Origin: Blastocatellia bacterium | GTDB taxonomy: Bacteria; Acidobacteriota; Blastocatellia; UBA7656 | DNA length: 64,000 nt | NCBI GenBank assembly: GCA_046565505.1 | Contig: JBKHYJ010000061.1 | Location: 26,552-90,551, forward strand | Direction: 5' to 3' | Shown here: one piece after another, positions 23,115-42,768 of the stretch | How the letters are laid out: every line of letters starts with the position of its first letter | How positions within the stretch are numbered: position 1 is the first letter of the stretch | Notes under the pieces: generated by a model | Database searches by the model: none | Seen by the model: only the letters and a program-made list of their open reading frames with translations | Told to the model about the DNA's origin: nothing | Program-made: the position numbers and the translations under genes

Positions 23115-24164
23115 TCACCCGAAGTTGACGCTAAGCTCGCGGCCGAAATTGAACTGGGGGCGGCGGCGCTGCTTGAGGGCTTTCGTGCCCGTCTGCGAAA
23201 GCGCGGTCACGAGGATCGGCATAGCGATCGTGGGGTCGCACAGGACGGAGACGGTCTTCGCGTCTTTAGCCACGCGCCCCCAGGTCTGCGCCTCCTCAAA
23301 GCTGCGGCCCGAAGTGGCGCTCGACTCGGGCAGGTCGAGGCCGATCTGCAAGCCATACTTGTGGCCGCGCAGGCCCTGCTTGATTATCGAGGCGGTGACT
23401 TCTATCTGATGAACGAAGCTCTTCGGCGGGCCGCCGCCGAACAGCACCACGGACGTGTTGACGGAGCGGGCCATGATCTGCGCCGCCTCGACCACGTCTT
23501 GAATGATGTCGAACTGGAACGGGTTCTTGCGGTTGATGCGGGAGGTGGCGATGCCGACGGCTATGGCCGAGTCGGCGACGCCCGGGCAGAAGATAGGGAC
23601 CTTCGCCTTGTAGGCGGAGGTGAGTATGCCGTCTTCGGTGGCGATCTCGGAAAGCTCGCGCCCCAGCAGGTGCAGGAACTCGCGCGTCGAGTACGGGCGC
23701 GAATGGTCCACGGTGTTGGCGAAATTGCCGACCCACTCGTCGGCCTCGCGGTACTCGTGGTCGCTCGCCAGCGTGTCGTAAAAGCGGCCCACCTGCGCCT
23801 CCTGAAGCTCGTCGTCATTCCACTCGCCGGACCCCTGGTAGTGGTAACGCCCGAGCGTCTCGTGCAGGTCGTGAAAGAGGTTCGCGCCCGTCGAGACGAC
23901 AACATCAACGTAGTGGTTCTTGATCAGGTAGGAGATCAGCCGCCGCATCCCGGCCGCCACCAGCGCGCCCGACAGCCCCATAAACACAGTCGAGTTGTCC
24001 GTCAGCATGTCGAGCCACAGGTTGTGCGCGTCGGCGAGCGCGCGCGCCTGAAAGCCCGCGCCCTCCATCTTCGTGAGTATGCCGGCCACCGAGCGGTCCC
24101 TGTCTATCTGTATGGGGCGAGTGGGAGTAGTCAAGTACTTTGAACTCTTTTGTTTTCTCATCAT
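23115..24164 (-). CDS. Deoxyhypusine synthase-like protein (probable homospermidine synthase)
   Basis: DHS-family N-terminus (GILTKMEGAGFQARALADAHNL...VFMGLSGALVAAGMR...DVVVSTGANLFHD). It sits between speA and speB. Confidence 0.75.
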   Translation of the reverse strand: MMRKQKSSKYLTTPTRPIQIDRDRSVAGILTKMEGAGFQARALADAHNLWLDMLTDNSTVFMGLSGALVAAGMRRLISYLIKNHYVDVVVSTGANLFHDLHETLGRYHYQGSGEWNDDELQEAQVGRFYDTLASDHEYREADEWVGNFANTVDHSRPYSTREFLHLLGRELSEIATEDGILTSAYKAKVPIFCPGVADSAIAVGIATSRINRKNPFQFDIIQDVVEAAQIMARSVNTSVVLFGGGPPKSFVHQIEVTASIIKQGLRGHKYGLQIGLDLPESSATSGRSFEEAQTWGRVAKDAKTVSVLCDPTIAMPILVTALSQTGTKALKQRRRPQFNFGRELSVNFG

Positions 24165-24256
24165 TGTAGTGTATGCCTCTGGTGGGGTGGGCGCGGGGGC
24201 ATGGGGCGGGGGACGAACTTTATTCCAATCCCTGGCCCCTGCCCCCGCCCCGGCCC

Positions 24257-31044: not shown

Positions 31045-33573
31045 ATGAAAGAACTGCTGCCCGCCGACACTATCATCTCGCACTACCGCATAGTCTCTCG
31101 CCTGGGCGCGGGGGGCATGGGTGAAGTTTACCTCGCGGAAGACATTCGCCTGGGCCGCCGCGTCGCGCTCAAGCTGCTGCCCGCGCAGTTCATCAAAGAC
31201 GAAGACAGGCTCCGCCGCTTCGAGCAGGAGGCGCGCGCCGCCTCCGCGCTGAATCACCCGAATATCATCACGATCCACGAAGTCGGCGTCGAGGACGGCA
31301 TGCGCTTTATAGCGACGGAGTTCATAGAAGGCGAGACGCTGCGCCAGCGAATGAGGCGCGCACCCGTCGGGCTGGGCGAGGCGCTGGACGTGGCCATCCA
31401 GGTGGCGAACGCGCTCGCGGCGGCGCACCAGGTGGGCATAGTCCATCGCGACATCAAGCCCGAGAACATAATGCTACGACCGGACGGCTACGTGAAGGTT
31501 CTCGACTTCGGCATAGTGAAACTGACGGAGAAATTCTCGGGGCAGAGGCCCGCGGAACCGGAAGCGGAGGGCGCGGCGGCCCCCGTGCTGACGGAGGCCA
31601 ATATCGTCATGGGCAGCCCGAGTTATATGTCGCCCGAGCAGGCGCGCGGGGTCGCCGTCGATGGCAGGACAGATATTTTCAGCCTCGGGGTCATCATCTA
31701 TGAAATGGTGGCGGGGAGGCGGCCCCACGAGGGGCCTACCGTGAGCGATATTATTGTCGCGATACTTGAGCGGCAGCCGGCGCCGCTGGCGGCCCGCGTG
31801 CCCGGCGTCTCGCCCAGGCTTGAGAAAGTGGTGGCCAAGGCGCTCGCAAAAGACAGGGAGGCCCGCTACCAGACGATCACGGACATGCTCGCCGACTTGA
31901 AGCGCCAGAAGCGCCGCGTAGATTTTGAGGCCGGCCTGGACGAGTCCGTCCCGCCGGACTTTCACTCGGAGCCGACGGTCCCCATAGCGCCCCGGCAGGA
32001 TTCGCACGCGACGGTCAAAGAACTCGGCGTCCCCAGCGACCAGATCGACACCACGCGCGCCACGTCGAGCGCGGAGTATATCGTCACAGAGATCAAACAG
32101 CATAAGCTCGGGTTCATTACCGCCGCCGCCACAATAATCGCGGCGGCGGCGGCGGCCTTCCTGCTCATGCGGGGCGGCCGCGGCCACCCCATCGACTCCA
32201 TAGCCGTGCTGCCGTTGGTCAACGAGACCGCGGACCCGAACACGGAGTACCTATCGGATGGCATAACGGAGAGCCTCATCAACAACCTGTCGCAGTCGCG
32301 CAGCCTGAAGGTGATGTCGCGCAACTCCGTCTTCCGCTACAAGGACCGTGGAGTGAGCCCCGAGGAGGCGGCGCGCGACCTCGGGGTACACGGCGTGCTG
32401 ACGGGGAGGATCGTTCAGCGGGGCGATAATCTCACGATCAGCATCGAGCTTGTGGACGCGCGCGACAACACGCACGTCTGGGGCGAGCAGTACAGCCGCA
32501 AGATGTCAGAGATAATATCGATGCAGGAGGAGATCGCAAAACAGATTTCCGAGAGGCTTCAACTGAGGCTGTCGGGCGAAGACCGCGGGCGCGTCGGCAA
32601 GCGGTACACGGATAATTCGGAGGCCTACCAGCTTTACTTGCGCGGCCGATTCTACTGGAACAAGCGGACGGAAGAGTCGCTCAGGAAGGGGCTGGATTAC
32701 TTCAACCAGGCGATTGAGAAGGACCCCGGCTACGCGCTCGCCTACGTGGGCGTGGCGAACTGCTACGCCATGCTGGCGGAGTTGGAGGCTTCGCCGCCGA
32801 AGGAGCTTTACCCGAAAGTGAAGGCGGCGGCGGCGCGGGCGCTCGAGATTGACGACACGCTGGCGGAGGCTCACACGTCGCTCGCGGCGGTCAACGAGTA
32901 CGAATGGAACTGGTCCGCGGCCGAAGACCAGTACCGGCGCGCCATCGAGCTTAACCCAAACTACGAGACGGCCCACCACTGGTACGCGGCATACCTGACG
33001 AGCCGCCTTCGGTCCGACGAGGCGATGCGCGAGATCAACCTGGCGCTGGGGCTCGACCCGCTGTCGCTCATCATAAACACGTCAGTGGGGAGGGTGCTGT
33101 TCGGCGCGAGGCAGTACGACAAGGCCATAGAGCAGCTCAAGAAGACGCTCGACCTGGACCCGAACTTTGCCGAGGCCCGCTTCCAGATCGCGATGGCTTA
33201 CGAGCAGAAGCGCATGTATGACGACGCCATCCGCGAATTCCAAAAGTCCGTGGAGCTTTATAACGACCCGGCGATGATGGCCTGGGTGGCGCGCGCTTAC
33301 GCGGCGTCCGGGAGGCGGGCCGACGCCGAGCAGGCACTTGCGGACTTAATGGAGATGTCCAGGCAGAAGTACATATCGCCTTACCCGATGGCGACCGTCT
33401 TCGCAGCGCTGGGCGATAAGGAGCGCGCGTTAGAGTGGCTCGAAAAGGTCTACCAGGAGCGGTCCTATTACGTGGTCTGGCTCAACGTAGACCCCGTCTT
33501 CGACGGCATACGCTCGGACTGGCGCTTTCAAGACCTGCTGCGGCGCATCGGCCTCACGCCGGGCCAATCGTAG
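31045..33573 (+). CDS. Ser/Thr protein kinase with transmembrane segment and C-terminal TPR array
   Basis: Hanks kinase motifs GAGGMGEVY, HRDIKPENIML, DFG and SPE. One TM helix (ITAAATIIAAAAAAFLLM). A TolB-like/TPR C-terminal half. Confidence 0.85.
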   Translation: MKELLPADTIISHYRIVSRLGAGGMGEVYLAEDIRLGRRVALKLLPAQFIKDEDRLRRFEQEARAASALNHPNIITIHEVGVEDGMRFIATEFIEGETLRQRMRRAPVGLGEALDVAIQVANALAAAHQVGIVHRDIKPENIMLRPDGYVKVLDFGIVKLTEKFSGQRPAEPEAEGAAAPVLTEANIVMGSPSYMSPEQARGVAVDGRTDIFSLGVIIYEMVAGRRPHEGPTVSDIIVAILERQPAPLAARVPGVSPRLEKVVAKALAKDREARYQTITDMLADLKRQKRRVDFEAGLDESVPPDFHSEPTVPIAPRQDSHATVKELGVPSDQIDTTRATSSAEYIVTEIKQHKLGFITAAATIIAAAAAAFLLMRGGRGHPIDSIAVLPLVNETADPNTEYLSDGITESLINNLSQSRSLKVMSRNSVFRYKDRGVSPEEAARDLGVHGVLTGRIVQRGDNLTISIELVDARDNTHVWGEQYSRKMSEIISMQEEIAKQISERLQLRLSGEDRGRVGKRYTDNSEAYQLYLRGRFYWNKRTEESLRKGLDYFNQAIEKDPGYALAYVGVANCYAMLAELEASPPKELYPKVKAAAARALEIDDTLAEAHTSLAAVNEYEWNWSAAEDQYRRAIELNPNYETAHHWYAAYLTSRLRSDEAMREINLALGLDPLSLIINTSVGRVLFGARQYDKAIEQLKKTLDLDPNFAEARFQIAMAYEQKRMYDDAIREFQKSVELYNDPAMMAWVARAYAASGRRADAEQALADLMEMSRQKYISPYPMATVFAALGDKERALEWLEKVYQERSYYVVWLNVDPVFDGIRSDWRFQDLLRRIGLTPGQS

Positions 33574-33618: not shown

Positions 33619-36600
33619 TCACCCGGAAAAAGCGTCTTTGACCAGTTGCCGCTGCTCCATCTGGTGGATCGTGTGTGACCCGGTCGCCGGGCTCGCGCTC
33701 GGGGGGCGGCCGGCGTATCTCAATCCCTGACCCGCGCCGAGCAGGCCGCGCAGGCGGGGCTCCATGAAGAACCAGCCGCCCATGTTGTGCGGCTCTTCCT
33801 GGACCCAGCAAATGTCGGCCGCGCCCGCGTACCTGCTCAATTCGCCGGCCACCAGGTTTTTCGGGAATGGGTAGAGCTGCTCGAGGCGGACTATCGCCGT
33901 CGTTTCGTCCCCGAGGTTTTTTCTCTGGGCGATCAGGTCGTAATAGACTTTGCCGCTGCACAACAGAACTCGGACCACGCCCGCGGGGCTCTTGATTTCT
34001 TCGTCGCCCATCACGGGCTGAAACCCCCCTGCCGTGAACTTATCAATCGCGGAGGCCGCCTCCGGTAGCCGGAGTAAGCTTTTCGGCGTTATAGCGACCA
34101 GCGGCTTGCTCGCGGCCTGCCGCACCTGGCGCCGCAGCACATGGAAGTACTGGGCCGCCGTAGTGCAATTGACCACCTGCATGTTTTGCTCGGCGCAAAG
34201 CTGCAGGAATCGCTCGAACCGCGCGCTCGAATGCTCCGGCCCCTGGCCCTCGTACCCGTGAGGCAACAGCAACACGAGGCGCGTCGTCTGGTTCCACTTC
34301 TCTTCGGCCGAAGAGATGAACTGGTCCACTATGACCTGCGCGGCGTTGATGAAATCCCCGAACTGCGCCTCCCACAATACGAGCGTCTGAGGGGACGCCA
34401 CGCTGTAGCCATACTCGAAGCCGAGCGCGCCCGCCTCCGAAAGGGGGCTGTCATAGATTTGATACTTCGCCTTGTCCGTAATGGTCGCCAGCGGCGTCCA
34501 CTCTTCGCCCGTCTGCGTATCGACGAAGGCGGCGTGGCGGTGGCTGAACGTGCCGCGCACGGTGTCCTGCCCGGTGAGCCTCACCGAAGTCCCTTCGACG
34601 AGCAGCGACCCGAACGCGAGAGCTTCGGCCGTGCCCCAGTCGACGGGCACGCCGCCCTCGACCATCTTCGACCGACGCCCGAGCAGGCCGACTATTTTAG
34701 GGTTCAGGTTGAACCCGCGCGGGACCGTCGTGATCGCATGCGTAATCTCGCGCAGCGTGTCGAGGCCCACGCCCGTCTCGGCGACCTCCACGGATTCGGG
34801 CTCGGGCGCGGGCAGGGGCAGCGAGGGCTGCGTGCCTTGCTTGGCGATGATCTCTTTCGCGCCGAGCTGCGCATTCTCGTACCTGCGCATGCGCTCGTCC
34901 ATCAGCGAGGCGACCTCCTGCTCGCTCATGACGCCCTCGCCGACGAGCCGGCGCGCGTAAAGGGCGCGCGCGCCGGGGTGCTCTTTGATCCGCCGGTACA
35001 TAACGGGCTGCGTGTAGGTCGGCTCGTCGCCCTCGTTGTGCCCGAGGCGGCGGAACCCTATCACGTCTATCACCACGTCCTTCTGGAAACGCTGCCTGTA
35101 GTCTAGCGCTATCTGAATGACGTTGTAGGCGGCCTCCGCGTCGTCGCTGTTGACGTGAAAGATCGGCACCTGAATCATCTTCGCGATGTCCGTGCTGTAA
35201 GTCGAAGAGCGGCCCTCTTCCGGCGGCGTGGTGAACCCCAGCTGGTTGTTCGTGATGATGTGAATCGTGCCGCCCGTGCGGTAGCCGGGGAGCTGCGAAA
35301 GGTTGAGCGTCTCTGCCACCACGCCTTCGCCGGCGAATGCGGCGTCGCCGTGGAGCAGTACGGCCAGCTTACTCTCGCGCCTGCCGTCGAGGTCCTGGCG
35401 GGCGCGCACTATGCCTTCGACGACCGGGTCGACAAACTCCAGGTGGCTGGGGTTGGGCACTACGGCCAGGTGCACCTGCCTGCCGTCGTCGGTCTCCCGC
35501 ACGCCGCTCGCGCCCTGGTGGTACTTCACGTCGCCCTGGTCGTGCGGGAAGCGCGGGTGTATGGAGCCTTCAAAGCTCGTGAATATGCGCTCGCAGAATT
35601 TGCCTATGACGTTTGCGATCACGTTCAGCCTGCCGCGGTGCGCCATGCCGATGGTTATGTCGTCCACGCCGCGCGCCGCCGCACACTCGATCAACTGGTC
35701 GAGCACGGCGATGACGGTTTCGTTGCCTTCGATCGAGAATCGCTTCTGGCCGAGGTACTTCGTGCCGAGGAATTTCTCGAACGACTCGGCCGAAATCAGC
35801 TTCCACAAAATTCGCTTCTTAGTTTCGACGGGCGCGGGCTGGGGCTCCGCCTCTACGCGCGCGCGGATCCACTCCTTCTCTTCAGGCCCCTGGATGTTCC
35901 GGTACTCGACCCCGACCTTGCCGCAGTAATAGCGGCGCAGGCGGTCCACTATCTCGCGAAGTGTGCCGGTTTCGGCCCCGCCGAGCCCGCCCGTGATGAA
36001 CTGGCGGTCCAGGTCCCAGATCGTCAGCCCGTAAGTCTCGATGTCGAGTTCCGTGTGATACTGGACCTCCTTCCACCCGAGCGGGTCGATGTCCGCGACC
36101 AGGTGGCCGCGCACGCGGTAGGCGTTGATGAGTTGAAGGACGCGCGCCTGTTTGCTGACCTCGTCGCGGTGGCGGTCTTCGCCGAGTATCGCCGGGTTTA
36201 TGTCGATCGCCCAGCGGTAAGGGCGGAACGGGATGCCCAACTCACGGAATATCTCTTCGTAAAAGTCATGACGGCCGCGCAGCAACTCGTCGATGAGCGC
36301 GAGGAAGGCGCCGGACTCCGCGCCCTGCACTATGCGGTGGTCGTAAGTCGAAGTCATGACCATGACCTTACTGATGCCTATGCGCGACAGCGCTTCGGCA
36401 GACATGGCCTGGTACTCCGGCGGGTACTCGATAGAGCCGGTCGCGACTATGACCCCCTGACCGGCCATCAGCCGGGGGTTGGAAGCCGTGGTGCCTATCG
36501 TGCCGGGGTTCGTGAGGCTGATCGTCGTGCCCTGGAAATCTGAGAGCTGGAGCTTGCCCGCCCGCGCCCGCTTTATCACGTCGTCATAGCTCGCCAGCAG

Positions 36601-37449
36601 CTCGGGGAAGGTCATCCTGCCCGCCCCTTTGATATTCGGGACAAGAAGCGTCCGCGCGCCGTCTTTCTTGGTCACGTCTACCGCCACGCCGAGGTTGACC
36701 TCGGCATGGCGGGCGCGGTAAGCCGCCCCTCCCGCCTCCTCGTATGAATCATTCAACTGGGGGTAAGTTTCCAGGGCCCTGATTATCGCCCGGGCGATCA
36801 GGTGAGTGTAGGATACTTTGCGGTTCGAAGCCTTGAGGTGCTGGTTGATGAGGCGGCGGTTTTCGTCCAACAGCTTGAGCGGTATCTGACGCTGCGAAGT
36901 GGCGGTCGGCACGCTGACGCTCGCCTGCATATTCTCGGCTATGCGGAGCGCGGGGCCGCGGATGGGCACGCGCTCGACCGCGCCGGGCTGCGAGGCAGCA
37001 GCTTGCGCGGCCGGCGGCGGCGCGGTAGCTTTGGCTGCCGGAGCTTCGGCCGCAGCAGCTTCGGGCGCAGTCGCAGGGGCGTGCGATTGCAAACCCGGCG
37101 AGGGCGAAGGCGTCGACGCCTTCGCGCCCCAGTCATATGTCGGCTGCAAAGTACGCGAAGTCTGTCGGCCGGCGGCCGCTTCGGTGCCCGCGGCCTGTGG
37201 CGAGGATTTTGCGCCATCACCTGTCGCCGAGCCGCCCTGGCCGGGCCCGCCCGCGGCCCGGCCGTCGCCTAATAGCTCGTCGAAGTATGAGCGCCATTCC
37301 GCATCGACCGACGCGGGGCTGCGCTCGAATTGTTTGAGGAGTTCGCCCACGTAGTCCGCGTTGACGCCGAACTCGTCGGCGATAATCTGATCGAGTTCCC
37401 CCTGAGTCATTGGCCTTCTTGTCATCTCTTTTCCCCCCGCTGCAATCAT
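33619..37449 (-). CDS. kgd: Multifunctional 2-oxoglutarate dehydrogenase E1 with N-terminal E2-like acyltransferase domain (Kgd/OdhA type)
   Basis: 1276 aa. An N-terminal Ala/Pro-rich linker, an E2 catalytic-like block (SYTHLIARAI), then a ThDP E1 region with strong collinear similarity to the OdhA/Kgd layout (QGPEHSSARFERFLQLCAE). The true start is possibly the ATG at 37410 (MTQGELDQII). Confidence 0.9.
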   Translation of the reverse strand: MIAAGGKEMTRRPMTQGELDQIIADEFGVNADYVGELLKQFERSPASVDAEWRSYFDELLGDGRAAGGPGQGGSATGDGAKSSPQAAGTEAAAGRQTSRTLQPTYDWGAKASTPSPSPGLQSHAPATAPEAAAAEAPAAKATAPPPAAQAAASQPGAVERVPIRGPALRIAENMQASVSVPTATSQRQIPLKLLDENRRLINQHLKASNRKVSYTHLIARAIIRALETYPQLNDSYEEAGGAAYRARHAEVNLGVAVDVTKKDGARTLLVPNIKGAGRMTFPELLASYDDVIKRARAGKLQLSDFQGTTISLTNPGTIGTTASNPRLMAGQGVIVATGSIEYPPEYQAMSAEALSRIGISKVMVMTSTYDHRIVQGAESGAFLALIDELLRGRHDFYEEIFRELGIPFRPYRWAIDINPAILGEDRHRDEVSKQARVLQLINAYRVRGHLVADIDPLGWKEVQYHTELDIETYGLTIWDLDRQFITGGLGGAETGTLREIVDRLRRYYCGKVGVEYRNIQGPEEKEWIRARVEAEPQPAPVETKKRILWKLISAESFEKFLGTKYLGQKRFSIEGNETVIAVLDQLIECAAARGVDDITIGMAHRGRLNVIANVIGKFCERIFTSFEGSIHPRFPHDQGDVKYHQGASGVRETDDGRQVHLAVVPNPSHLEFVDPVVEGIVRARQDLDGRRESKLAVLLHGDAAFAGEGVVAETLNLSQLPGYRTGGTIHIITNNQLGFTTPPEEGRSSTYSTDIAKMIQVPIFHVNSDDAEAAYNVIQIALDYRQRFQKDVVIDVIGFRRLGHNEGDEPTYTQPVMYRRIKEHPGARALYARRLVGEGVMSEQEVASLMDERMRRYENAQLGAKEIIAKQGTQPSLPLPAPEPESVEVAETGVGLDTLREITHAITTVPRGFNLNPKIVGLLGRRSKMVEGGVPVDWGTAEALAFGSLLVEGTSVRLTGQDTVRGTFSHRHAAFVDTQTGEEWTPLATITDKAKYQIYDSPLSEAGALGFEYGYSVASPQTLVLWEAQFGDFINAAQVIVDQFISSAEEKWNQTTRLVLLLPHGYEGQGPEHSSARFERFLQLCAEQNMQVVNCTTAAQYFHVLRRQVRQAASKPLVAITPKSLLRLPEAASAIDKFTAGGFQPVMGDEEIKSPAGVVRVLLCSGKVYYDLIAQRKNLGDETTAIVRLEQLYPFPKNLVAGELSRYAGAADICWVQEEPHNMGGWFFMEPRLRGLLGAGQGLRYAGRPPSASPATGSHTIHQMEQRQLVKDAFSG

Positions 37450-37626
37450 ACAGTTTAATGCGTCGGGCGGTGGTTAACAACCGGAGACAAAAAGGCGTCT
37501 CGATATTCAATATTTTGGGGTCACCCGCGCCGTGACGCGGCCCCGCCCGCCCCGATTTAAGCCCCGGACTTACAATCAAGATTCACTCCTCGCTCCCCCG
37601 CCTTAAACCCGCTACGGCATGTGAGT

Positions 37627-37729
37627 AGCAGCTACACACCTGTGAAGCAGCTACACATAATTAATAAGCCGTTGATTCAACTATCGTTATGGGGTGGCGC
37701 AGGTGAAGTGTGAATCTGCTACACACAGG
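37627..37729 (+). promoter_or_regulatory. Three direct repeats of GCTACACA (two as AGCAGCTACACA) with embedded inverted half-sites ACCTGTG/CACAGGT
   Basis: Copies at 37631, 37650 and 37718 lie in the AT-rich region between kgd (minus strand) and the micro-ORFs. Layout suggests a transcription-factor binding array. Confidence 0.35.
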
Positions 37730-37914
37730 TAATCCCGCGCGGCCTCGGAGGCTATTTGTTAAATCGTTGAATTCGCGCCGGGCGGCGGCGGCGGCCGTGT
37801 CAACCGATCGCGGCACGGCCGTTGCTCAGTAGATAGGCGTAACAAGAATCGCTGGGGCCCTTCAGTAACGCCGCAGCAAAAGACGAAAGATTAAAATAAA
37901 AAGAGGAGATTGCC

Positions 37915-38031
37915 ATGACTAACAAGAATTTGACAGACGGAATGTTGATCAGCAGCGTGAGCCTTCTTAGCGAAGGAATGTTGATCAGTAGCATGAGCCT
38001 TCTTAGCGAAGGAATGTTGATCAGCAGCTAG
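37915..38031 (+). CDS. Micro-ORF of 38 codons (MTNKNLTDGMLISSVSLLSEGMLISSMSLLSEGMLISS). Putative small peptide (precursor, membrane-active or leader peptide).
   Basis: Strong SD AAGAGGAG 6 nt upstream of the ATG, preceded by an A-rich enhancer-like tract. The body is built from a 36-bp tandem repeat. The N-terminus is paralogous to the next micro-ORF. Confidence 0.45.
   Translation: MTNKNLTDGMLISSVSLLSEGMLISSMSLLSEGMLISS
37939..38028 (+). repeat. 36-bp tandem repeat, 2.5 copies (GGAATGTTGATCAGCAGCGTGAGCCTTCTTAGCGAA)
   Basis: Copy 1 is 37939-37974, copy 2 is 37975-38010 with two substitutions, and the half copy is 38011-38028. It is in frame with the micro-ORF and encodes GMLISS[V/M]SLLSE units. 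Confidence 0.85.
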
Positions 38032-38109
38032 CAAGCGACCGCGTACTACCAGAAGCCATGCGCGCTTGATGGCTCGGACCTTCAATCAGAACCTCTAAAG
38101 GAGATGGCC

Positions 38110-38196
38110 ATGAATAACAAACAAAAAAACGACGGCGTGATCCTGGAAGGGATAGAGGCAGCCAGAGTTGAAGAAACGATCGCTCCTAGCAAATGA
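38110..38196 (+). CDS. Micro-ORF of 28 codons (MNNKQKNDGVILEGIEAARVEETIAPSK), paralogous at the N-terminus to the upstream micro-ORF
   Basis: SD AAAGGAG 6 nt upstream of the ATG at 38110 (an alternative ATG is at 38104). The motif N-K-x-x-x-D-G-[MV]-[IL]-[IL] is shared with peptide 1. Confidence 0.4.
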   Translation: MNNKQKNDGVILEGIEAARVEETIAPSK

Positions 38197-38364
38197 CGCT
38201 TTTAGCAGCGAACCGCTGAGTATCAACCCAGAGCCGCGTCAGTCCGGCAGCGAGTTACCTGGAAGTCGAGTTGAAGAGATTGGACCCAAGAGCCGGTATC
38301 ATTATAGCGAAAACTTGAGCATCTACTAAACAAGTAATAAACCCAAAAGTGCTACCTCAAAAGT

Positions 38365-38437
38365 GCGGCGTCGATGAATTTAGGCCTGTCGGGCTGGTTT
38401 TGACAACTTGCCTTAATTCATCGGCGCCGCGTTTTTT
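38365..38437 (+). terminator. Long stem-loop plus T-tract terminator downstream of the micro-ORFs
   Basis: 15/16-bp arms GCGGCGTCGATGAATT / AATTCATCGGCGCCGC with a 34-nt loop, immediately followed by GTTTTTTGTT. Confidence 0.45.
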
Positions 38438-38748
38438 GTTCGCTCAAGAGCATTTGCTAAAACACGCTTGCAGTGCTCCCGCATTCGTCACTTGGCCCGC
38501 GTCCGCCCCGCAGGGGGAAGCAATCAGGAGTCTCGAAAACGGCGACTTCCGCCATCGGCTTGACCTACTGAGTCTGTAACGAATATTCTTTACAAACTTC
38601 CTGGGAAGGCCGATAGTTATGTCTCTAGACGATAAATTCCTCGTCGGCGGGTCACTCGTAAGCAGCCTAGCTTTGCGCCTAATCTTATGACAGAATAATG
38701 GTGCGGCTTTTCACTTGTAGCTTTGTGTTAAGTCATCTCTAAGCCAAG

Positions 38749-40047
38749 ATGCAGCAGACAGAGCGAAGCTTGAAATTTTCCCTAACTCAGCGCGTACGAC
38801 AGTTCCCGCTTTTAAAACCATTCGCCGCAAGTGACTTTCGGTTACTCTGGATCGGCCAGGGCATGTCATTGTTCGGCGATCAGTTTTACCTCGTGGCCTT
38901 GCCATGGCTCGCGCTAAATTTGACGGGCTCAAGCCTCGCGCTCAGCTCGATCCTGATAGTAACAGCAACCACCCGCGCCCTGTTTCAGCTTTTCGGGGGG
39001 GCGCTCAGCGACCGCGTTTCGCCCCCCATGCTAATGCTCATCTCGAATGTGGTCCGCGCGCTGGTGAGCGGCACGCTGACGATGCTCGTGCTGTTTTCCG
39101 TCGCGAGGCTTTGGCACCTTTACATTCTCGCGGCCATCTTCGGACTGGTCGACGCCCTGTTTTTCCCTGCTTACATGGCCATCATTCCTATGGTGGTCGT
39201 GAACGCAGACCTACAGGCCGGCAACGCCGTGCTGCGCGGGATGAACCGTTTCATGGGGCTGATAGGCCCGGCGCTGGCCGGCGCGGTCATATCGAAGATA
39301 AGCCTAGGGGCGGCCTTCGCCATAGACGCGTCCACGTTCGTTTTCGCGGCGCTGATGCTCTGGCCGATAATACAAGGCGGGCGCGTCGGCGCGGACCCGA
39401 ATAGCAAGAAGGACGAGGAGAAAGAGGCGGGCAAAAAAGAAGGGCTGCTTAAGAGCATAGTCGAAGGGCTGCGCTACGCCTGGGAGCACCGGCTTATACG
39501 GTCGCTGCTGCTTTTCATCTCGGCCTTCGAGTTCTCGTACGCGGGCATAGGCGGCGTCGGGCTCCCGGCCCTGGCCAAGACCCGCTTCAGCGAGGAGGGC
39601 GGGGCGAGCGCCTTAGGGTGGATGATGTCGTCGTTCGGCGCGGGCATGATGATAGGGATGCTTCTGGCCGGCTCAATCAAGGTGACGAGGCGGCGCGGGA
39701 AGGTGCTCATCGCACTGATCTTCATGATCGGGACTGGCTTCATAATGCTCGGCTTCGTCTCCCACGTGGCGACGGCCGGGCTCGTGCTAGCGTTCGTGGG
39801 GATAGGCGGCGGGCTGTCAAGCATAATACTGATGGCATGGATACAGGAGTGCACTGAGCCGCGAATGATCGGCCGAGTCATGGGCCTGTTTATGCTCGGG
39901 ATATCGGTGCTCGAGCCGCTCTCGTTTGTGATCGCCGGGTTGATGGCCGACCGCAACCTCGAACTCTTATTCATCGGCGGGGGCATAATCAGCCTGATAA
40001 CCGCCATCACCTCTCTATCAAGCCGCACCTTGCGCAACAGCAATTAA
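38749..40047 (+). CDS. MFS transporter
   Basis: 12-TM MFS architecture with the DUF/MFS_3-like N-terminus FRLLWIGQGMSLFGDQFYLVALPWL. Confidence 0.8.
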   Translation: MQQTERSLKFSLTQRVRQFPLLKPFAASDFRLLWIGQGMSLFGDQFYLVALPWLALNLTGSSLALSSILIVTATTRALFQLFGGALSDRVSPPMLMLISNVVRALVSGTLTMLVLFSVARLWHLYILAAIFGLVDALFFPAYMAIIPMVVVNADLQAGNAVLRGMNRFMGLIGPALAGAVISKISLGAAFAIDASTFVFAALMLWPIIQGGRVGADPNSKKDEEKEAGKKEGLLKSIVEGLRYAWEHRLIRSLLLFISAFEFSYAGIGGVGLPALAKTRFSEEGGASALGWMMSSFGAGMMIGMLLAGSIKVTRRRGKVLIALIFMIGTGFIMLGFVSHVATAGLVLAFVGIGGGLSSIILMAWIQECTEPRMIGRVMGLFMLGISVLEPLSFVIAGLMADRNLELLFIGGGIISLITAITSLSSRTLRNSN

Positions 40048-40302: not shown

Positions 40303-42768
40303 ATGGAGAATCTTTTTCAGGACCTGCGCTATGGCTTCCGAACACTAATTAAAAACCTCGGGTTCACGATTATAGCCGTGATCGCGCTGGGGCTCGGGAC
40401 CGGGGCCAACAGCGCCATCTTCAGCGTCGTTAACGCCGTGCTGCTCCGGCCGCTGCCTTACAGCAGGCCCGATGAGTTAATGATGGTCTGGGGTAATAAT
40501 CTCAAGAGCGGCAACCCGAAGCTAGGGATATCCGCCCTCGACTTCATCGACTACCAGAACCAGAATAATGTCTTCGAGGGGTTGGCGAGCTTCACCTACG
40601 ACGACTTCAACCTCAGCGGGGGCGACACGCCGGAGCACGTCCAGGGCACGATGGTCTCGTCAAATTTTTTTGAAGTCTTGGGCGTAAACGCCGCGGTCGG
40701 CCGCGCGCTCATGGCAGAGGATGGGCGGCCCGGCGCCGAGCGCGTCGTCGTAATCAGCAATGGGTTGTGGAAGCGGCGCTTCGGGTCTGACCGGGGGCTG
40801 ATAGGCCAGACCATCATGCTCAATGGGGCCAGCTTCACGGTCATCGGCGTCACCCCGCCGAACTTTCAATCCCCCGAAAAGGGCGACGAGCTGTGGGTGC
40901 CTATGTCGTTCGATGGCGGCGATAGGATACGGATCCCATCGAGCGCGTCTTTCGCCGCCCTGACGAACCGCATGGCTACGTTCTTGAAAGGCGTCGCGAG
41001 GCTCAAACCCGGCGTCACCCGCGAGCAGGCCCATGAGGACATGAATGCCATCGCCAAACGCCTCGAACAGGAGTACCCGAACACGAACACGAATATAGGC
41101 ATAACGGTCCTCCCGATGAAAGAGGAAGTCGTGGGCGACATGAGGGCGGCCCTACAGTTTTTATTTATCGCCGTGGGCTTCGTGCTCTTGATAGCGTGCG
41201 CGAACGTGGCGAACCTACTGCTTTCGCGCGCGGCCGCGCGCCAAAAAGAGATCGCCATCCGCGTGGCTTTAGGGGCGGGCCGCCGGCGCGTCATAAGACA
41301 ACTGCTTACAGAAAGCCTGCTGCTGTCTGTGATCGGGGGGGCGCTCGGGCTCGTGCTCGCCTTCGGCGCGATCAAGCTTCTGGTCGCGATAAACCCGGCC
41401 AACATCCCTCGCCTGTCGGAGATCGACATTGATGGACGCGTGCTCGCCTTCACGCTTTTAATCTCGCTGCTGACGGGCGTAATCTTCGGCCTCGTGCCCG
41501 CGCTGCAGGCGACGAAGCCCGACCTCAACGAAACGCTCAAGGCCGAAGGCGCGCGGGGCTCGACAGGCGGCATTCGCAAGCAGCGCGTCCGCAGCCTGCT
41601 GGTGATCTCCGAAGTGGCGCTGACGGTGCTGCTGCTCATCGGCGCGGGGCTGATGATAAAGAGTTTTTACTCGCTACAGAAGGTGAAGCTCGGGTTCAAC
41701 CCGGAAAACGTCCTGACCATGCAGGTGAACCTGCCCGCCGTCAAGTACGCCGAAGACACTCAAATCACTTCTTTCTACGATCAGGTCCTCCAACGCGTGC
41801 AGGCGCTCCCGGGCGTGCAGGCCGCCGGCGCGGCGACGAGCATACCGCTGATGGACAGGATATTCATGCGCCGGTTCACCGTGGACGGCCGCCCGCCCGC
41901 CACGCCCAACGAGCGGCTCATGGCCCACTTCAGGTCCGTCAGCTACGACTATCACAGGGCGATGGGCATCCCGCTGCTGAAGGGCAGATACTTCAGCGAG
42001 CAGGACCGCGACAACTCCGCCCCCGTAATCATAATTAACGAGTCTATGGCGCGCCGCTACTGGCCCGACGAGGACCCGATCGGCAAGCACATGACGATCC
42101 CGGGCGACGGCCCGATTTCGCGCGAGATAGTGGGCGTGGTCGCCGACGTTAAGCACACGAAGCTCGACGCCGAGTCCGGGTCAGAGATGTACGTGCCCTA
42201 CCTCCAGAAGCCTTACACTTTCATGGGCCTCGTCGTGCGCACGGGGACGGACCCCGTGCAGATGACCAACGCCGTCCGCACCCAGGTCCTCGCCGTCGAC
42301 GACACCCAGGCGGTTTACGACATCAAGACCATGCAGCAGATGGTCGGCGAATCCGTCTCGCAGCCGCGGCTGAATATGCTGCTGCTCACGATTTTCGCGG
42401 GCATCGCGCTCGTGCTCGCGGCGGTAGGGATTTATGGCGTGATGAGCACCACCGTCAGCCAGCGGAAGCAGGAGATAGGGATTCGCCTGGCGCTCGGCGC
42501 GCAGGCTTCGGACATACTCAAGATGATTGTCGGGCAGGGGATGATTCTCGCACTGGCGGGGCTGGCGATTGGCGTGGTGACGGCGCTCTTGCTGGCGCTC
42601 GCGTTGACGCGATTCATAGAGGGTTTCCTCTTCGGAGTGAGCTCGACCGACCTGACGATCTTTATCGGCATCCCTATGCTGCTCTTCCTCGTGGCGCTTT
42701 TATCCTGCTACATCCCCGCGCGCAGGGCGACGAGGGTTGACCCGATGATGGCCTTGCGCGCCGAGTGA
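40303..42768 (+). CDS. Duplicated FtsX/MacB-type ABC permease (ADOP family) without an adjacent ATPase
   Basis: Signature N-terminus MENLFQDLRYGFRTLIKNLGFTIIAVIALGLGTGANSAIFSVVNAVLLRPLPY. Two MacB-like periplasmic domains plus two FtsX 4-TM modules. AAGGAAG lies upstream of the ATG. Confidence 0.85.
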   Translation: MENLFQDLRYGFRTLIKNLGFTIIAVIALGLGTGANSAIFSVVNAVLLRPLPYSRPDELMMVWGNNLKSGNPKLGISALDFIDYQNQNNVFEGLASFTYDDFNLSGGDTPEHVQGTMVSSNFFEVLGVNAAVGRALMAEDGRPGAERVVVISNGLWKRRFGSDRGLIGQTIMLNGASFTVIGVTPPNFQSPEKGDELWVPMSFDGGDRIRIPSSASFAALTNRMATFLKGVARLKPGVTREQAHEDMNAIAKRLEQEYPNTNTNIGITVLPMKEEVVGDMRAALQFLFIAVGFVLLIACANVANLLLSRAAARQKEIAIRVALGAGRRRVIRQLLTESLLLSVIGGALGLVLAFGAIKLLVAINPANIPRLSEIDIDGRVLAFTLLISLLTGVIFGLVPALQATKPDLNETLKAEGARGSTGGIRKQRVRSLLVISEVALTVLLLIGAGLMIKSFYSLQKVKLGFNPENVLTMQVNLPAVKYAEDTQITSFYDQVLQRVQALPGVQAAGAATSIPLMDRIFMRRFTVDGRPPATPNERLMAHFRSVSYDYHRAMGIPLLKGRYFSEQDRDNSAPVIIINESMARRYWPDEDPIGKHMTIPGDGPISREIVGVVADVKHTKLDAESGSEMYVPYLQKPYTFMGLVVRTGTDPVQMTNAVRTQVLAVDDTQAVYDIKTMQQMVGESVSQPRLNMLLLTIFAGIALVLAAVGIYGVMSTTVSQRKQEIGIRLALGAQASDILKMIVGQGMILALAGLAIGVVTALLLALALTRFIEGFLFGVSSTDLTIFIGIPMLLFLVALLSCYIPARRATRVDPMMALRAE

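What the first reader, a model, noticed from the sequence alone, without database searches (positions are those of the whole stretch)
37450..38748. AT-rich 1.3-kb island with two tandem, paralogous micro-ORFs (38 and 28 codons) built on a 36-bp repeat, followed by a terminator, an MFS exporter and an orphan ADOP permease
Observed directly: the 1.3 kb between kgd and the MFS gene has much lower GC than the flanks and no ORF of 60 codons or more with a ribosome-binding site. It does contain two short ORFs, each with a near-consensus Shine-Dalgarno at ideal spacing (AAGAGGAG-6-ATG at 37915; AAAGGAG-6-ATG at 38110). Their N-termini are paralogous (MTNKNLTDGMLI vs MNNKQKNDGVIL). The first is composed of 2.5 copies of a 36-bp tandem repeat, giving the Ser/Leu/Ile/Met-rich, Cys-free units GMLISS[V/M]SLLSE. 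A strong hairpin plus T-tract (38365-38437) follows, then an MFS transporter and an ATPase-less duplicated FtsX permease. Inference: this layout of tandem small-peptide genes, a repeat-encoded core, and two exporters fits three readings. It could be a ribosomal peptide precursor or bacteriocin-like locus, a pair of small membrane-active peptides, or a Leu/Ile/Ser/Met-codon-rich leader-peptide attenuator controlling the downstream transporter. No modification enzyme is present, so if it is a RiPP the tailoring genes lie elsewhere. The two substitutions between repeat copies, one synonymous and one Val/Met, are consistent with purifying selection on a coding repeat.
Basis: partly seen in the sequence, partly recalled or inferred. 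Interest (0 to 1): 0.65.

Follow-up and report, generated by a model that had tools for sequence, protein, structure and literature searches.

The report
Sigma-54-driven micro-peptide operon beside exporters
The two tiny ORFs are real, conserved genes: a stand-alone sigma-54-controlled operon encoding a repeated hexapeptide and a 28-residue acidic peptide, which in related Acidobacteria always sits with an MFS/ADOP exporter pair and usually with a TPR-domain sigma-54 activator, so it looks like an undescribed secreted-peptide (possibly cell-to-cell signalling) module.

Summary
In detail: ORF1 (37915-38031, 38 aa, 2.5 copies of a 36-bp repeat), ORF2 (38110-38196, 28 aa), both Shine-Dalgarno sites, the low-GC island and the hairpin are all there.

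Three 17-bp palindromes (TGTGnAGCnGCTnCACA) and an IHF-like site precede a sigma-54 promoter (CGGCACGGCCGTTGCT, 37811-37826).

Comparison with 10 related metagenomic loci shows this is a conserved transcription unit:
- **ORF2 is protein-coding.** dN/dS is 0.07-0.3, and variable columns by codon position are 7/7/20.
- **ORF1's functional unit is a hexapeptide, G-hydrophobic x3-x-x.** It occurs once (14-aa ORFs), as in-frame multi-copy arrays of 18-, 30- or 36-nt period, or as tandem 7-codon mini-genes (MGVVLGD).
- **The promoter geometry does not change.** The palindrome spacing and the distance to the promoter are the same in every lineage.
- **The neighbours recur.** In distant relatives the operon lies downstream of TPR-bEBP/MFS/ADOP. 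In one locus it lies next to a protease-HlyD fusion instead.

The attenuator reading is rejected. A RiPP reading is unsupported but not excluded. The best reading (about 0.4) is exported short peptides controlled, and perhaps sensed, by a TPR-domain sigma-54 activator. No described family matches. No expression or export data exist.

The parts
37622..37638 (.). Upstream activator site 1 (TGAGTAGCAGCTACACA), an imperfect 17-bp palindrome
   Evidence: 3 matches to TGTGnAGCnGCTnCACA in 64 kb, against 0.08 expected. Present at the same relative position in every related locus.
37641..37657 (.). Upstream activator site 2 (TGTGAAGCAGCTACACA)
   Evidence: It starts 19 nt after site 1 in all 9 loci that include sites 1 and 2 (the 8 tabulated plus L021; L007 is cut upstream of site 3).
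37709..37725 (.). Upstream activator site 3 (TGTGAATCTGCTACACA)
   Evidence: It starts 67-69 nt after site 2 and 102-105 nt before the promoter motif in all loci.
37758..37774 (.). Conserved block GTTAAATCGTTGAATTC, IHF-like, between the activator sites and the promoter
   Evidence: conserved in sequence and position in all lineages. It matches the IHF consensus WATCAANNNNTTR on the minus strand with 1 mismatch here, and matches it perfectly in L015. Calling it an IHF site is inference.
37811..37826 (+). Sigma-54 promoter CGGCACGGCCGTTGCT (GG at -24, GC at -12, exact spacing)
   Evidence: the only match to TGGCAC-N5-TTGCW with 1 mismatch or fewer in the 64-kb window. Conserved in 10 loci, 65-120 nt upstream of the first peptide ATG.
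37837..37914 (+). Inferred 5' UTR, with the conserved CGTAAC[AG]AG motif (37838-37847) and a small hairpin (37851-37866)
   Evidence: The transcription start is inferred from the promoter geometry. Conservation is shown. The motif's function is unknown.
37901..37908 (+). Shine-Dalgarno site of ORF1 (AAGAGGAG)
   Evidence: GGAGAttGCCATG is conserved in relatives down to 53-59% MFS identity (L013, L020); L015 has a diverged site.
37915..38031 (+). ORF1, 38 aa: MTNKNLTD-(GMLISS-VSLLSE)-(GMLISS-MSLLSE)-GMLISS. A multi-copy hexapeptide precursor.
   Evidence: Orthologues have 14, 26 or 38 aa and always end in the G-hydrophobic x3-x-x hexapeptide. L006 differs from the window only by 3 synonymous codons in the shared 14 codons.
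37939..38028 (+). 36-bp tandem repeat, 2.5 copies (12 codons: hexapeptide plus a 6-residue linker)
   Evidence: The copy number is 1.5 in L001, L002 and L005. In L005 the linker differs (VRAHND) while the core is identical.
38097..38103 (+). Shine-Dalgarno site of ORF2 (AAAGGAG)
38110..38196 (+). ORF2, 28 aa: MNNKQKNDGVILEGIEAARVEETIAPSK. The conserved acidic peptide class.
   Evidence: dN/dS is 0.07-0.51 across pairs, and variable columns by codon position are 7/7/20. M1, G-V-I, E-E and A-P are invariant in 10 sequences from 5 lineages. Two more members were found among 1.84 billion representative proteins.
38197..38358 (+). Poorly conserved 3' untranslated stretch
   Evidence: the highest substitution density in the unit, and largely deleted in L008.
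38359..38442 (+). Long terminator hairpin (arms 38359-85 and 38410-36) plus T tract
   Evidence: I1; 23 consensus pairs, 9 of them with compensatory double changes across 6 loci. Folding energies are -37 to -47 kcal/mol.
38749..40047 (+). MFS transporter (MFS_1 / MFS_3 'transmembrane secretion effector'), the candidate peptide exporter
   Evidence: Linked to the peptide operon in the window's clade and in L013, L014, L015 and L020.
40303..42768 (+). ADOP duplicated MacB-like permease with no adjacent ATPase gene, the candidate partner exporter
   Evidence: TIGR03434, 1045 bits. It immediately follows the MFS gene in all MFS-anchored loci that extend that far (L010 ends at the MFS gene).

Best explanation
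The island is a self-contained, sigma-54-dependent operon for two classes of very short peptides that share a Gly-hydrophobic-hydrophobic-hydrophobic core.

**Shown**
- A bEBP-type enhancer sits upstream: three 17-bp palindromes with invariant spacing, then a conserved IHF-like block, then a -24/-12 promoter.
- The promoter drives ORF1, ORF2 and a long terminator hairpin.
- ORF1 delivers the hexapeptide G-[MVI]-[LVI]-[ILV]-[SG]-[SDNQ] in one to five copies.
- ORF2 is a 25-34-residue acidic peptide, GVI[LF]..I..EE.[IV]AP, under purifying selection.
- The operon travels with an MFS/ADOP transporter pair.
- In more distant relatives it also travels with a roughly 1015-aa regulator built from about 680 aa of TPR, a sigma-54 AAA+ domain and an HTH_8 domain.

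**Inferred**
- The TPR-bEBP binds the three palindromes as three dimers, which makes one hexamer, and activates the promoter.
- The peptides are trimmed in front of the Gly. This would be Met removal in the 7-codon versions and endoproteolysis after Asp/Glu in the longer ones.
- The trimmed peptides are exported by the MFS/ADOP pair.
- The most likely role is a secreted peptide signal that feeds back on its own promoter through the peptide-binding TPR domain, giving an autoinduction loop.
- ORF2 would be a second ligand or a competitor, because it shares the same core.

I put the anatomy (a real, translated, sigma-54-controlled peptide operon linked to the transporters) at about 0.9. I put the export-plus-signalling mechanism at about 0.4.
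For: **Control region**
- The promoter is the only near-consensus sigma-54 site in the 64-kb window.
- The three palindromes occur 3 times against 0.08 expected.
- The same palindrome consensus recurs with start-to-start spacings of 19 and 67-69 nt (9 loci) and 102-105 nt to the promoter (10 loci), spanning 51-96% MFS identity.

**Coding evidence for ORF2**
- dN/dS is 0.07-0.3 for most pairs, and variable columns by codon position are 7/7/20.
- The motif is conserved in 5 lineages.

**Coding evidence for ORF1**
- Arrays of 18-, 30- and 36-nt period, all in frame, have arisen independently, and each keeps the hexapeptide.
- The four GMLLGD copies in L013 differ only at synonymous sites.
- L005 keeps the core but has a different linker.
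- L014 has at least 4 tandem 7-codon genes (MGVVLGD, MGVILGD), each with its own strong Shine-Dalgarno site.

**Linkage**
- MFS and ADOP are adjacent to the peptide operon in the window's clade and in L013, L014, L015 and L020.
- The TPR-bEBP is adjacent in L013, L015-18, L020 and L021. In L019 it is adjacent to MFS/ADOP, but no peptide operon was found within the stretch fetched.
- At least 14 contigs in all carry homologues of both, judged by matching contig lengths or by direct inspection.
- A search started from the bEBP alone (L021) recovered the same enhancer, promoter and ORF2-type genes. There they lie next to an HExxH intramembrane protease-HlyD fusion, which is peptide maturation and secretion machinery.

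**TPR domain**
- The closest solved relatives of the TPR region by sequence are LGN/GPSM2 and kinesin light chain, both peptide-binding TPRs.

**Terminator**
- 9 of 23 pairs show compensatory changes.
Against: - No transcription, translation or peptide data exist. All loci are metagenome or MAG contigs.
- The TPR-bEBP gene is not in this 64-kb window. The only bEBP here (56493-57863) has a receiver-domain sensor, so the activator of this particular promoter is unidentified.
- No oligopeptide importer is linked, although a cytoplasmic receptor would need one.
- L014 shows no recognisable sigma-54 promoter or palindromes.
- L021 lacks MFS and ADOP.
- A TPR domain binding the peptides is pure inference.
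- The ADOP has no ATPase partner, and its substrate is unknown.
Confidence: 0.4

Rival explanations
1. Intracellular feedback modulators. The peptides are not exported. They act in the cytoplasm as small-protein ligands (activating or inhibiting) of the TPR domain of the sigma-54 activator, or of another target. The MFS/ADOP genes would be co-regulated cargo or an unrelated output.
For: - The peptide operon is the only place in each locus that carries the activator's palindromes.
- The ORF2 type is acidic and about 25-30 residues long, similar in size to the peptides that bind LGN- and KLC-type TPR grooves.
- No importer gene is linked.
- L021 has the operon without MFS or ADOP.
Against: - The operon is tightly and repeatedly linked to exporter-type genes. 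In L021 it is linked to a membrane protease-HlyD secretion adaptor.
- Amplifying a hexapeptide to 3-5 copies, or to 4 or more mini-genes, suits a diffusible product made in bulk better than a stoichiometric ligand.
- A free cytoplasmic hexapeptide would be quickly degraded.
Confidence: 0.2
2. An antimicrobial or otherwise bioactive secreted peptide (RiPP-like or unmodified). The MFS/ADOP pair would provide export and self-protection, and the TPR-bEBP would sense an unrelated cue. Any tailoring genes would lie elsewhere.
For: - The multi-core precursor layout resembles cyanobactin-type RiPPs.
- A 7-codon gene next to an MFS exporter recalls microcin C (PMC4010828).
- MacB/FtsX-type permeases often handle antimicrobial peptides.
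- L021 has a relative of the daptide and epipeptide maturation proteases (NF041824, E = 5e-60, below the cut-off; NF058609).
- Methyltransferase and flavoprotein genes lie beside the bEBP in L013, L015, L020 and L021.
Against: - No modification enzyme is present in the 64-kb window.
- None is conserved next to the peptides.
- The neighbouring methyltransferase and flavoprotein look like quinone or isoprenoid enzymes (UbiG model above its cut-off; geranylgeranyl reductase family).
- The leaderless MGVVLGD genes leave nothing for a leader-dependent enzyme to recognise.
- The peptides have no Cys, Ser or Thr pattern typical of known RiPP classes.
- There is no MccB/ThiF gene, and a C-terminal Asn is not conserved.
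Confidence: 0.2
3. A leader-peptide attenuator. Translation of the Leu/Ile/Val/Met-rich micro-ORFs would control read-through of the hairpin into the MFS/ADOP genes.
For: - In the window the ORFs lie upstream of the MFS gene, and a terminator lies between them.
- The T tract after the hairpin is imperfect in L006, L007 and L008, so some read-through is conceivable.
Against: - In L013, L015 and L020 the same operon is downstream of ADOP and is followed by convergent genes. In L021 there is no MFS or ADOP at all.
- The hairpin starts 160 nt after the ORF2 stop codon, and no alternative pairing involving the ORFs was found. The whole-transcript fold has a z-score of only -1.6.
- The hydrophobic positions interchange among V, L, I and M, so no single amino acid is being sensed.
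- ORF2's peptide sequence itself is under purifying selection.
Confidence: 0.03
4. A non-coding sigma-54-dependent sRNA whose repeats are RNA or protein-binding motifs, with the ORFs being incidental.
For: - Sigma-54-dependent regulatory RNAs exist, for example Qrr (PMC10162802).
- The unit has a promoter, a strong 3' hairpin and repeated GGA-containing units.
Against: - There is no Rfam match and no significant global structure.
- Third-codon-position variation dominates in ORF2.
- Repeat copies differ only synonymously.
- The nucleotide sequence of the repeats is unrelated between lineages, while the encoded hexapeptide is kept.
- Shine-Dalgarno sites are conserved in front of every ORF, including the 7-codon ones.
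Confidence: 0.02

Closest known systems
RRNPP-type peptide quorum sensing (Rap/Phr, NprR/NprX, PlcR/PapR, PrgX/cCF10-iCF10, Rgg/SHP) of Firmicutes (PMC3509411, PMC3519770; otherwise my own knowledge)
   Same: - Very short, hydrophobic, ribosomally made peptides of 5-8 mature residues, encoded next to a regulator whose sensor is a TPR-type repeat domain.
- The peptide gene is itself the regulator's target, which gives autoinduction logic.
- The mature SHP peptide begins at an Asp/Glu, and here an Asp/Glu usually precedes the core Gly.
- An intramembrane metalloprotease (Eep) matures SHP and cCF10, and L021 has an HExxH intramembrane protease next to the peptides.
- An agonist/antagonist peptide pair sharing a core (cCF10 and iCF10) would parallel ORF1 and ORF2.
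   Different: - The regulator here is a sigma-54 AAA+ enhancer-binding protein with a C-terminal HTH_8. It is not an N-terminal-HTH one-component sigma-70 activator or a phosphatase.
- The phylum is Acidobacteriota, which has an outer membrane.
- The precursors have no signal-peptide-like hydrophobic leader. Some are multi-copy arrays or leaderless 7-codon genes.
- The linked transporters are MFS and ADOP, not PptAB or Sec.
- No Opp importer is linked.
- Peptide binding by the TPR domain has not been shown.
Microcin C (mccABCDEF) and McC-like peptidyl-nucleotides (PMC4010828)
   Same: A 7-codon ribosomally translated gene, among the shortest known, sits next to an MFS efflux pump. Peptide length varies between homologous clusters.
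   Different: - No MccB/ThiF adenylyltransferase is present in any locus.
- The obligatory C-terminal Asn is absent (the ends are S, D, Q or N).
- The genes occur as tandem gene arrays and internal repeats.
- Control is by sigma-54 and a bEBP.
Multi-core precursors: yeast alpha-factor and cyanobactin PatE-type precursors (my own knowledge)
   Same: Several copies of one short mature peptide lie in a single ORF, separated by variable spacers. The core is conserved and the spacers are free to drift, as with GMLISS between VSLLSE and VRAHND. Copy number varies between strains.
   Different: No Kex2-type or PatA/PatG-type protease or heterocyclase is linked. The L013 arrays have no spacer at all. 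The taxa and the regulation differ.
Classical sigma-54/bEBP enhancer promoters (glnAp2/NtrC, nifH/NifA) (PMC7057263; otherwise my own knowledge)
   Same: -24 GG and -12 GC elements, multiple dyad activator sites 100-200 bp upstream, and an IHF-like site between them. TGT-N11-ACA is one base longer than the NifA site TGT-N10-ACA.
   Different: The target is a pair of micro-peptide genes. The associated activator has a roughly 680-aa TPR sensor instead of a receiver, GAF, PAS or V4R domain. I found no characterised bEBP with that architecture in the searchable literature.
ADOP family (TIGR03434), MacB-like duplicated permeases of Acidobacteria
   Same: The window protein is a full-length member (1045 bits) with no adjacent ATPase gene, as the family is defined.
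   Different: No substrate or partner has been assigned to the family. Here one ADOP subfamily is consistently paired with an MFS_3 transporter and a micro-peptide operon, which suggests a candidate substrate.

Membership tests
Sigma-54-dependent, bEBP-activated promoter | -24 GG and -12 GC elements with 10 nt between them, close to TGGCAC-N5-TTGCW | tested here: met
   CGGCACGGCCGTTGCT at 37811-37826 is the only hit with 1 mismatch or fewer in 64 kb. It is conserved in 10 loci.
Sigma-54-dependent, bEBP-activated promoter | Dyad-symmetric activator sites about 100-200 bp upstream | tested here: met
   Three 17-bp palindromes lie 102-189 nt upstream (3 found, 0.08 expected). Their geometry does not change across lineages.
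Sigma-54-dependent, bEBP-activated promoter | A cognate enhancer-binding protein encoded in the genome | tested here: inconclusive
   A TPR-AAA+-HTH_8 bEBP is adjacent in L013, L015-18, L020 and L021. It is not within this window, whose only bEBP (56493-57863) is of the receiver-domain type.
Sigma-54-dependent, bEBP-activated promoter | rpoN-dependent transcription start | not testable with these tools
   Needs RNA-seq or 5' RACE, and an rpoN mutant.
RRNPP peptide quorum sensing | A cytoplasmic receptor with a TPR-type peptide-binding domain, encoded next to the propeptide gene | tested here: inconclusive
   A TPR-domain regulator is adjacent in distant relatives but not in the window. Peptide binding is untested. 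The nearest solved TPRs are peptide binders.
RRNPP peptide quorum sensing | The receptor is an HTH-TPR one-component regulator (or a Rap phosphatase) acting without sigma-54 | tested here: not met
   The domain order is TPR, then Sigma54_activat, then AAA_lid, then HTH_8.
RRNPP peptide quorum sensing | Secreted propeptide that is re-imported by an oligopeptide permease | not tested
   No Opp-type genes appear in any of the fetched loci. The rest of each genome was not available.
Microcin C-like | An MccB (ThiF/E1-like) adenylyltransferase in the cluster | tested here: not met
   No ThiF-family hit among the window ORFs of 150 aa or more or among the called genes of the related loci.
Microcin C-like | The precursor ends in Asn | tested here: not met
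   The C-termini are S (window), Q, N, D and D.
RiPP precursor (generic) | Co-clustered post-translational modification enzyme(s) that recognise a leader or follower sequence | tested here: not met
   None in the window or conserved across the loci. Only L021 has a protease-HlyD fusion. The 7-codon leaderless genes in L014 leave no recognition sequence.
Leader-peptide transcription attenuator | The leader ORF lies directly upstream of the regulated genes, in the same transcript | tested here: not met
   The operon lies downstream of MFS and ADOP and is followed by convergent genes in L013, L015 and L020.
Leader-peptide transcription attenuator | Alternative terminator and antiterminator pairing that overlaps the leader ORF | tested here: not met
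   The hairpin is self-contained and lies 160 nt beyond ORF2. The intervening RNA is unconserved and is deleted in L008.
ADOP (TIGR03434) | Full-length match above the curated cut-off, two MacB_PCD plus FtsX modules, and no adjacent ABC ATPase | tested here: met
   1044.9 bits against a cut-off of 622.3. Pfam finds 2 MacB_PCD and 2 FtsX domains. The next gene encodes an HD-domain protein.
Any curated small-peptide family (Pfam, NCBIfam) or RNA family (Rfam) | Significant profile match | tested here: not met
   No hit at E <= 10 apart from one noise match. Rfam gives only noise.

The most novel reading that the evidence does not exclude
This would be a peptide-based autoinduction (quorum-sensing-like) circuit in Acidobacteriota, of a kind not yet described.

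- The receptor would be a cytoplasmic sigma-54 enhancer-binding protein whose sensor is a large TPR domain.
- The signals would be unmodified hexapeptides, encoded as multi-copy precursors or as 7-codon genes. These would be among the shortest functional bacterial genes.
- The long-orphan ADOP permeases, together with an MFS_3 partner, would be the peptide exporters.
- ORF2-type peptides would act as a second ligand or as an antagonist.
Probability: 0.3. Interest if true: 0.9.

Novelty: new variant of a known kind. Interest (0 to 1): 0.8.

Why it matters
1. It gives a first candidate substrate and partner set for ADOP permeases. This large acidobacterial family has had no assigned function since it was defined.
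2. It identifies a widespread but uncharacterised bEBP architecture (TPR sensor; at least 206 clusters at 90% identity in public data) together with its probable DNA site and target promoter. That makes it directly testable in a heterologous sigma-54 reporter system.
3. It suggests ribosomal-peptide signalling in a dominant soil phylum where no communication system of this kind is known.
4. It shows that functional genes of 7-38 codons escape annotation almost entirely. Only 2 called homologues were found among 1.84 billion representative proteins.
5. The independent 18-, 30- and 36-nt in-frame amplifications of one hexapeptide are a clean natural example of selection for the dosage of a mature peptide.

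Tried and rejected
- **Genome-contig scan with the MFS protein.** It returned only an unrelated 26%-identity locus, so GTDB representative genomes lack close relatives.
- **Word-indexed protein search with ORF1, the linker and ORF2 joined.** Nothing was found. The peptides are too short for that database, although one 29-aa orthologue (P0129) does exist in it.
- **Metagenome-contig scans.** The profile search matched 180 stretches, but none passed tblastn with a 28-aa query. A degenerate 47-nt codon pattern gave only two chance hits inside large ORFs.
- **Rfam, Pfam and NCBIfam** gave no family for the RNA or the peptides.
- **Whole-transcript RNA folding** was not significant (z = -1.6), so I dropped a structured-sRNA reading.
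- **Antisense ORFs.** Long stop-free stretches exist on the minus strand, but the frame switches between loci, the sequence is not conserved, and there is no start codon or Shine-Dalgarno site.
- **Read-through of the ORF1 TAG into ORF2.** The two are in the same frame with 26 sense codons between them, but the in-frame extension is not conserved, and L008 has none.
- **A functional link to kgd.** The adjacency is limited to the window's own clade.
- **The methyltransferase and flavoprotein genes beside the bEBP in distant loci as tailoring enzymes.** They score as UbiG and geranylgeranyl-reductase family proteins and are absent from the window.
- **Literature searches.** Searches for a TPR-sensor bEBP, ADOP substrates and acidobacterial peptide signals found nothing relevant.


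Full report
**1. The observation**

- ORF1 runs from 37915 to 38031 and encodes 38 aa. AAGAGGAG lies 6 nt upstream of its ATG.
- ORF2 runs from 38110 to 38196 and encodes 28 aa. AAAGGAG lies 6 nt upstream of its ATG.
- The 36-bp repeat has 2.5 copies at 37939-38028 (TRF score 166).
- A 27-nt-arm inverted repeat at 38359-38436 is followed by a T run.
- GC falls to 0.47-0.56, against 0.60-0.75 in the flanks.
- The neighbours are an OdhA-type 2-oxoglutarate dehydrogenase, an MFS_1/MFS_3 transporter and a duplicated MacB_PCD/FtsX permease. The permease is a full-length ADOP, TIGR03434, at 1045 bits.
- The 22 nt around the two start codons are shared at 20 of 22 positions. Shuffles expect no such match.
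- The source is a Blastocatellia MAG.

**2.

Upstream of ORF1 there is a near-consensus sigma-54 promoter, CGGCACGGCCGTTGCT, at 37811-37826. It is the only match with 1 mismatch or fewer in the 64-kb window.

It is preceded by three copies of a 17-bp palindrome, TGTGnAGCnGCTnCACA, at 37622, 37641 and 37709. Three were found against 0.08 expected. A conserved IHF-like block lies between them and the promoter, at 37758-37774.

This is the classical layout of a promoter activated by an enhancer-binding protein (bEBP). The unit therefore has its own promoter and its own terminator. The MFS gene has separate sigma-70-like candidate promoters after the hairpin.

**3. Relatives of the same clade**

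The peptides themselves are absent from the protein collections, so I reached relatives through the MFS protein and fetched their contigs.

Five further lineages, with MFS identity of 77-96%, keep the order kgd, island, MFS, ADOP. They also keep every element of the unit: the three palindromes, the promoter, ORF1, ORF2 and the hairpin.

ORF2 is plainly protein-coding.
- Among six sequences, 7, 7 and 20 columns vary at codon positions 1, 2 and 3.
- Pairwise dN/dS is mostly 0.07-0.3.
- GVILEG..A.VEETIAP is invariant.

ORF1 is more variable, but informatively so.
- Its basal form is 14 residues: MTNKNLTDGMLISS in L006, which differs from the window only by three synonymous codons. L007 has MTSKHLTDGMVLGQ, with the whole gene duplicated in tandem. 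L008 has MTNITLSDGIVLSN.
- L001 and L005 have 26 residues, and the window has 38.
- The repeat therefore adds further copies of the C-terminal hexapeptide GMLISS, each joined by a 6-residue linker.
- In L005 the linker is different (VRAHND) while the hexapeptide is identical.

The hairpin keeps 23 pairs. Nine of them show compensatory double changes.

**4. Distant relatives**

MFS homologues at 51-59% identity sit in a different neighbourhood. The order there is a roughly 1015-aa regulator, then MFS, then ADOP, and then, downstream of ADOP, the same operon.

The regulator is built from about 680 aa of TPR repeats, a sigma-54 AAA+ domain and a C-terminal HTH_8.

The operon has the three palindromes with start-to-start spacings of 19 and 67-69 nt, the IHF-like block, and a sigma-54 promoter 102-105 nt after the third palindrome. 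An ORF1-type gene, an ORF2-type gene and a hairpin follow.

The ORF1-type genes are:
- MCK(GMLLGD)x4 in L013;
- MCIGNLFGDVKCD(GVLLGDVKCD)x2 in L020;
- MCESRVLTGAHLLTD in L015.

L013 has two more ORF1-type genes upstream of its MFS gene, each MTKKLTT[DS] followed by five GVL[IV]GD-type units (the last unit of the second gene is DVLIGD).

L014 (55% MFS identity) has at least four tandem 7-codon genes upstream of its MFS gene: MGVVLGD twice and MGVILGD twice. Each has a strong Shine-Dalgarno site, and an assembly gap lies inside the array.

The unit G-[VMI]-[LVI]-[ILV]-[GS]-[DSNQ] has therefore been amplified independently with periods of 18, 30 and 36 nt and as whole mini-genes. Within L013 the four GMLLGD copies differ only at synonymous sites.

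The ORF2-type genes are:
- MLKQNNPEMGVIFDEIGIEEVIAPRV in L013;
- MANKLNLEMGVIFDEIQIEEVIAPRL in L020;
- MICSGAIYSEGVILTEIGIEEVIAP in L015.

Across ten sequences M1, G-V-I, E-E and A-P are invariant.

**5. An independent check from the regulator side**

The TPR region of the L013 regulator finds at least 206 clusters of the same architecture, mostly from Blastocatellia and other Acidobacteriota MAGs.

I looked up one regulator (P0245, 54% identity) whose contig was not among the MFS hits. The resulting locus, L021, has no MFS or ADOP gene, but it has:
- the same three palindromes, at 16046, 16065 and 16133;
- the promoter (CGGCACGCGCCTTGCC);
- two identical 34-residue ORF2-type genes, MTNEMTILNEGVILDDLMIEEIEEVVAPAVIVCG, each with a hairpin;
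- immediately downstream, an 838-aa fusion of an HExxH intramembrane metalloprotease with a HlyD-type secretion adaptor.

The protease half is related to the daptide and YydH/LiaK maturation proteases (E = 5e-60, below the equivalog cut-off).

So the regulator, its DNA sites and the peptide genes stay together, while the membrane machinery beside them can change. In every case that machinery is of a peptide-processing or export type.

**6. Interpretation**

Shown:
- The unit is a real, conserved, translated operon with a sigma-54 and bEBP control region.
- Its products are two classes of very short peptides sharing a Gly-hydrophobic x3 core.
- It is linked to MFS/ADOP and to a TPR-sensor bEBP.

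Inferred:
- The TPR-bEBP binds the three palindromes. Three dimers would make one hexamer.
- The peptides are trimmed in front of the Gly and exported.
- The TPR domain senses the peptides, which would close an autoinduction loop. By sequence, its closest solved relatives are the peptide-binding LGN/GPSM2 and kinesin-light-chain TPRs.

I give the full export-and-signalling mechanism about 0.4. The rivals are:
- cytoplasmic feedback ligands (0.2);
- a bioactive or RiPP-like secreted peptide with export and immunity genes (0.2);
- an attenuator (0.03);
- a non-coding RNA (0.02).

The attenuator reading fails on gene order in the relatives and on the absence of any alternative pairing. The RNA reading fails on the codon-position and synonymous-repeat evidence.

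**7. Comparison with known systems**

The logic is closest to the RRNPP systems of Firmicutes, which pair a short hydrophobic peptide with a TPR receptor and target the peptide gene itself. Every component differs, however: a sigma-54 AAA+ activator rather than an HTH-TPR protein, MFS/ADOP rather than PptAB or Sec, no linked Opp importer, and a different phylum. It cannot be filed as a member.

The 7-codon gene beside an MFS pump recalls microcin C. MccB and the obligatory C-terminal Asn are both absent.

The multi-copy layout recalls alpha-factor or cyanobactin precursors, without their processing enzymes.

No Pfam, NCBIfam or Rfam family matches. Literature searches found no description of a TPR-sensor bEBP, an ADOP substrate or acidobacterial peptide signals. 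Only two called homologues of ORF2 exist among 1.84 billion representative proteins.

**8. Limits**

- All evidence is comparative. There are no expression, translation or peptide data.
- All loci are metagenomic.
- The regulator for this particular window was not found within the 64 kb. The only bEBP here, at 56493-57863, has a receiver domain.
- L014 lacks a recognisable sigma-54 promoter.
- Two conserved DNA blocks remain unexplained: the IHF-like block, and CGTAAC[AG]AG at the inferred transcript start.

**9. Verdict**

The feature is a new variant of peptide-plus-exporter-plus-regulator modules, with several unprecedented parts. Interest is 0.8.

Noticed in passing
window 31045-33573 (+) and 33619-37449 (-): A Ser/Thr protein kinase with C-terminal TPR repeats (PknG-like architecture) lies convergent with a kgd that carries a fused E2 acyltransferase domain (OdhA/Kgd type). 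This pairing is known from Actinobacteria and appears here in an acidobacterium. The kgd adjacency to the peptide operon holds only in the window's own clade.
   Followed up: partly
window 56493-57863 (-), 57988-59379 (-), 59379-60113 (-): An NtrC-type bEBP (receiver, sigma-54 AAA+, HTH_8) sits next to a DUF6599 protein and a zinc-ribbon/bacterial-PH protein on the same strand. It is the only bEBP in the window. Whether it acts on the 37811 promoter is unknown.
   Followed up: no
window 3900 (+) and 15605 (-): Two weaker sigma-54-like motifs, TGGCACGCACGTCGCC and TGGGGCGCGTGTTGCT, score 10 of 12 consensus positions. The first lies inside the S8 peptidase ORF.
   Followed up: no
window 22149-26155 (-): A polyamine gene cluster: an arginase/agmatinase-family protein, a deoxyhypusine-synthase-like protein and a biosynthetic arginine decarboxylase.
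   Followed up: no
window 37838-37847; same position in L001, L005-L008, L013, L015, L020, L021: The motif CGTAAC[AG]AG is conserved just after the -12 element, at about +2 to +11 of the inferred transcript, in every lineage. In the window, TAACAAGAAT recurs inside ORF1 at 37920 (D12). Its function is unknown.
   Followed up: partly
window 38029-38109: ORF1's TAG stop codon is in frame with ORF2, with 26 sense codons and no further stop between them. Read-through would fuse the two peptides. The in-frame extension is not conserved in relatives, and L008 has none.
   Followed up: yes
L007 230-274 and 381-425: The whole 14-codon ORF1 gene, with its Shine-Dalgarno site, is duplicated in tandem with a 151-nt period and identical copies. 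This is a third way of raising the hexapeptide dose.
   Followed up: yes
L014 1375-1474: A run of N (an assembly gap) lies inside the array of 7-codon mini-genes, so the true copy number is undetermined. Tandem arrays of this kind probably break assemblies. No sigma-54 promoter or palindromes are recognisable in this locus.
   Followed up: partly
L021 16837-19353 (+): A single 838-aa protein fuses an HExxH intramembrane metalloprotease (related to the daptide and YydH/LiaK RiPP proteases) to a HlyD-family periplasmic adaptor. It lies directly after the two ORF2-type genes.
   Followed up: partly
L015 549-2401 (-), L021 5554-9538 (-), also L013 1-1956 and L020 412-2502: Diverging from the TPR-bEBP gene is a conserved set of genes. 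In L015 and L021 there are four small unannotated proteins of 50-109 aa, one weakly SemiSWEET-like, followed by a UbiG-like and a second methyltransferase; L021 also has a geranylgeranyl-reductase-family flavoprotein. L013 and L020 show one methyltransferase and a FAD-binding flavoprotein at the same place. L015 has a sigma-54-like motif (TGGCATATCTCTTGCA, position 2458, minus strand) in front of the set, but no palindromes.
   Followed up: partly
window 38443-38748: The 300 nt between the hairpin and the MFS start codon are almost identical between the window and L001/L002 and contain sigma-70-like promoter candidates at 38560-38617. This suggests the MFS/ADOP genes have a separate, conserved control region.
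   Followed up: no
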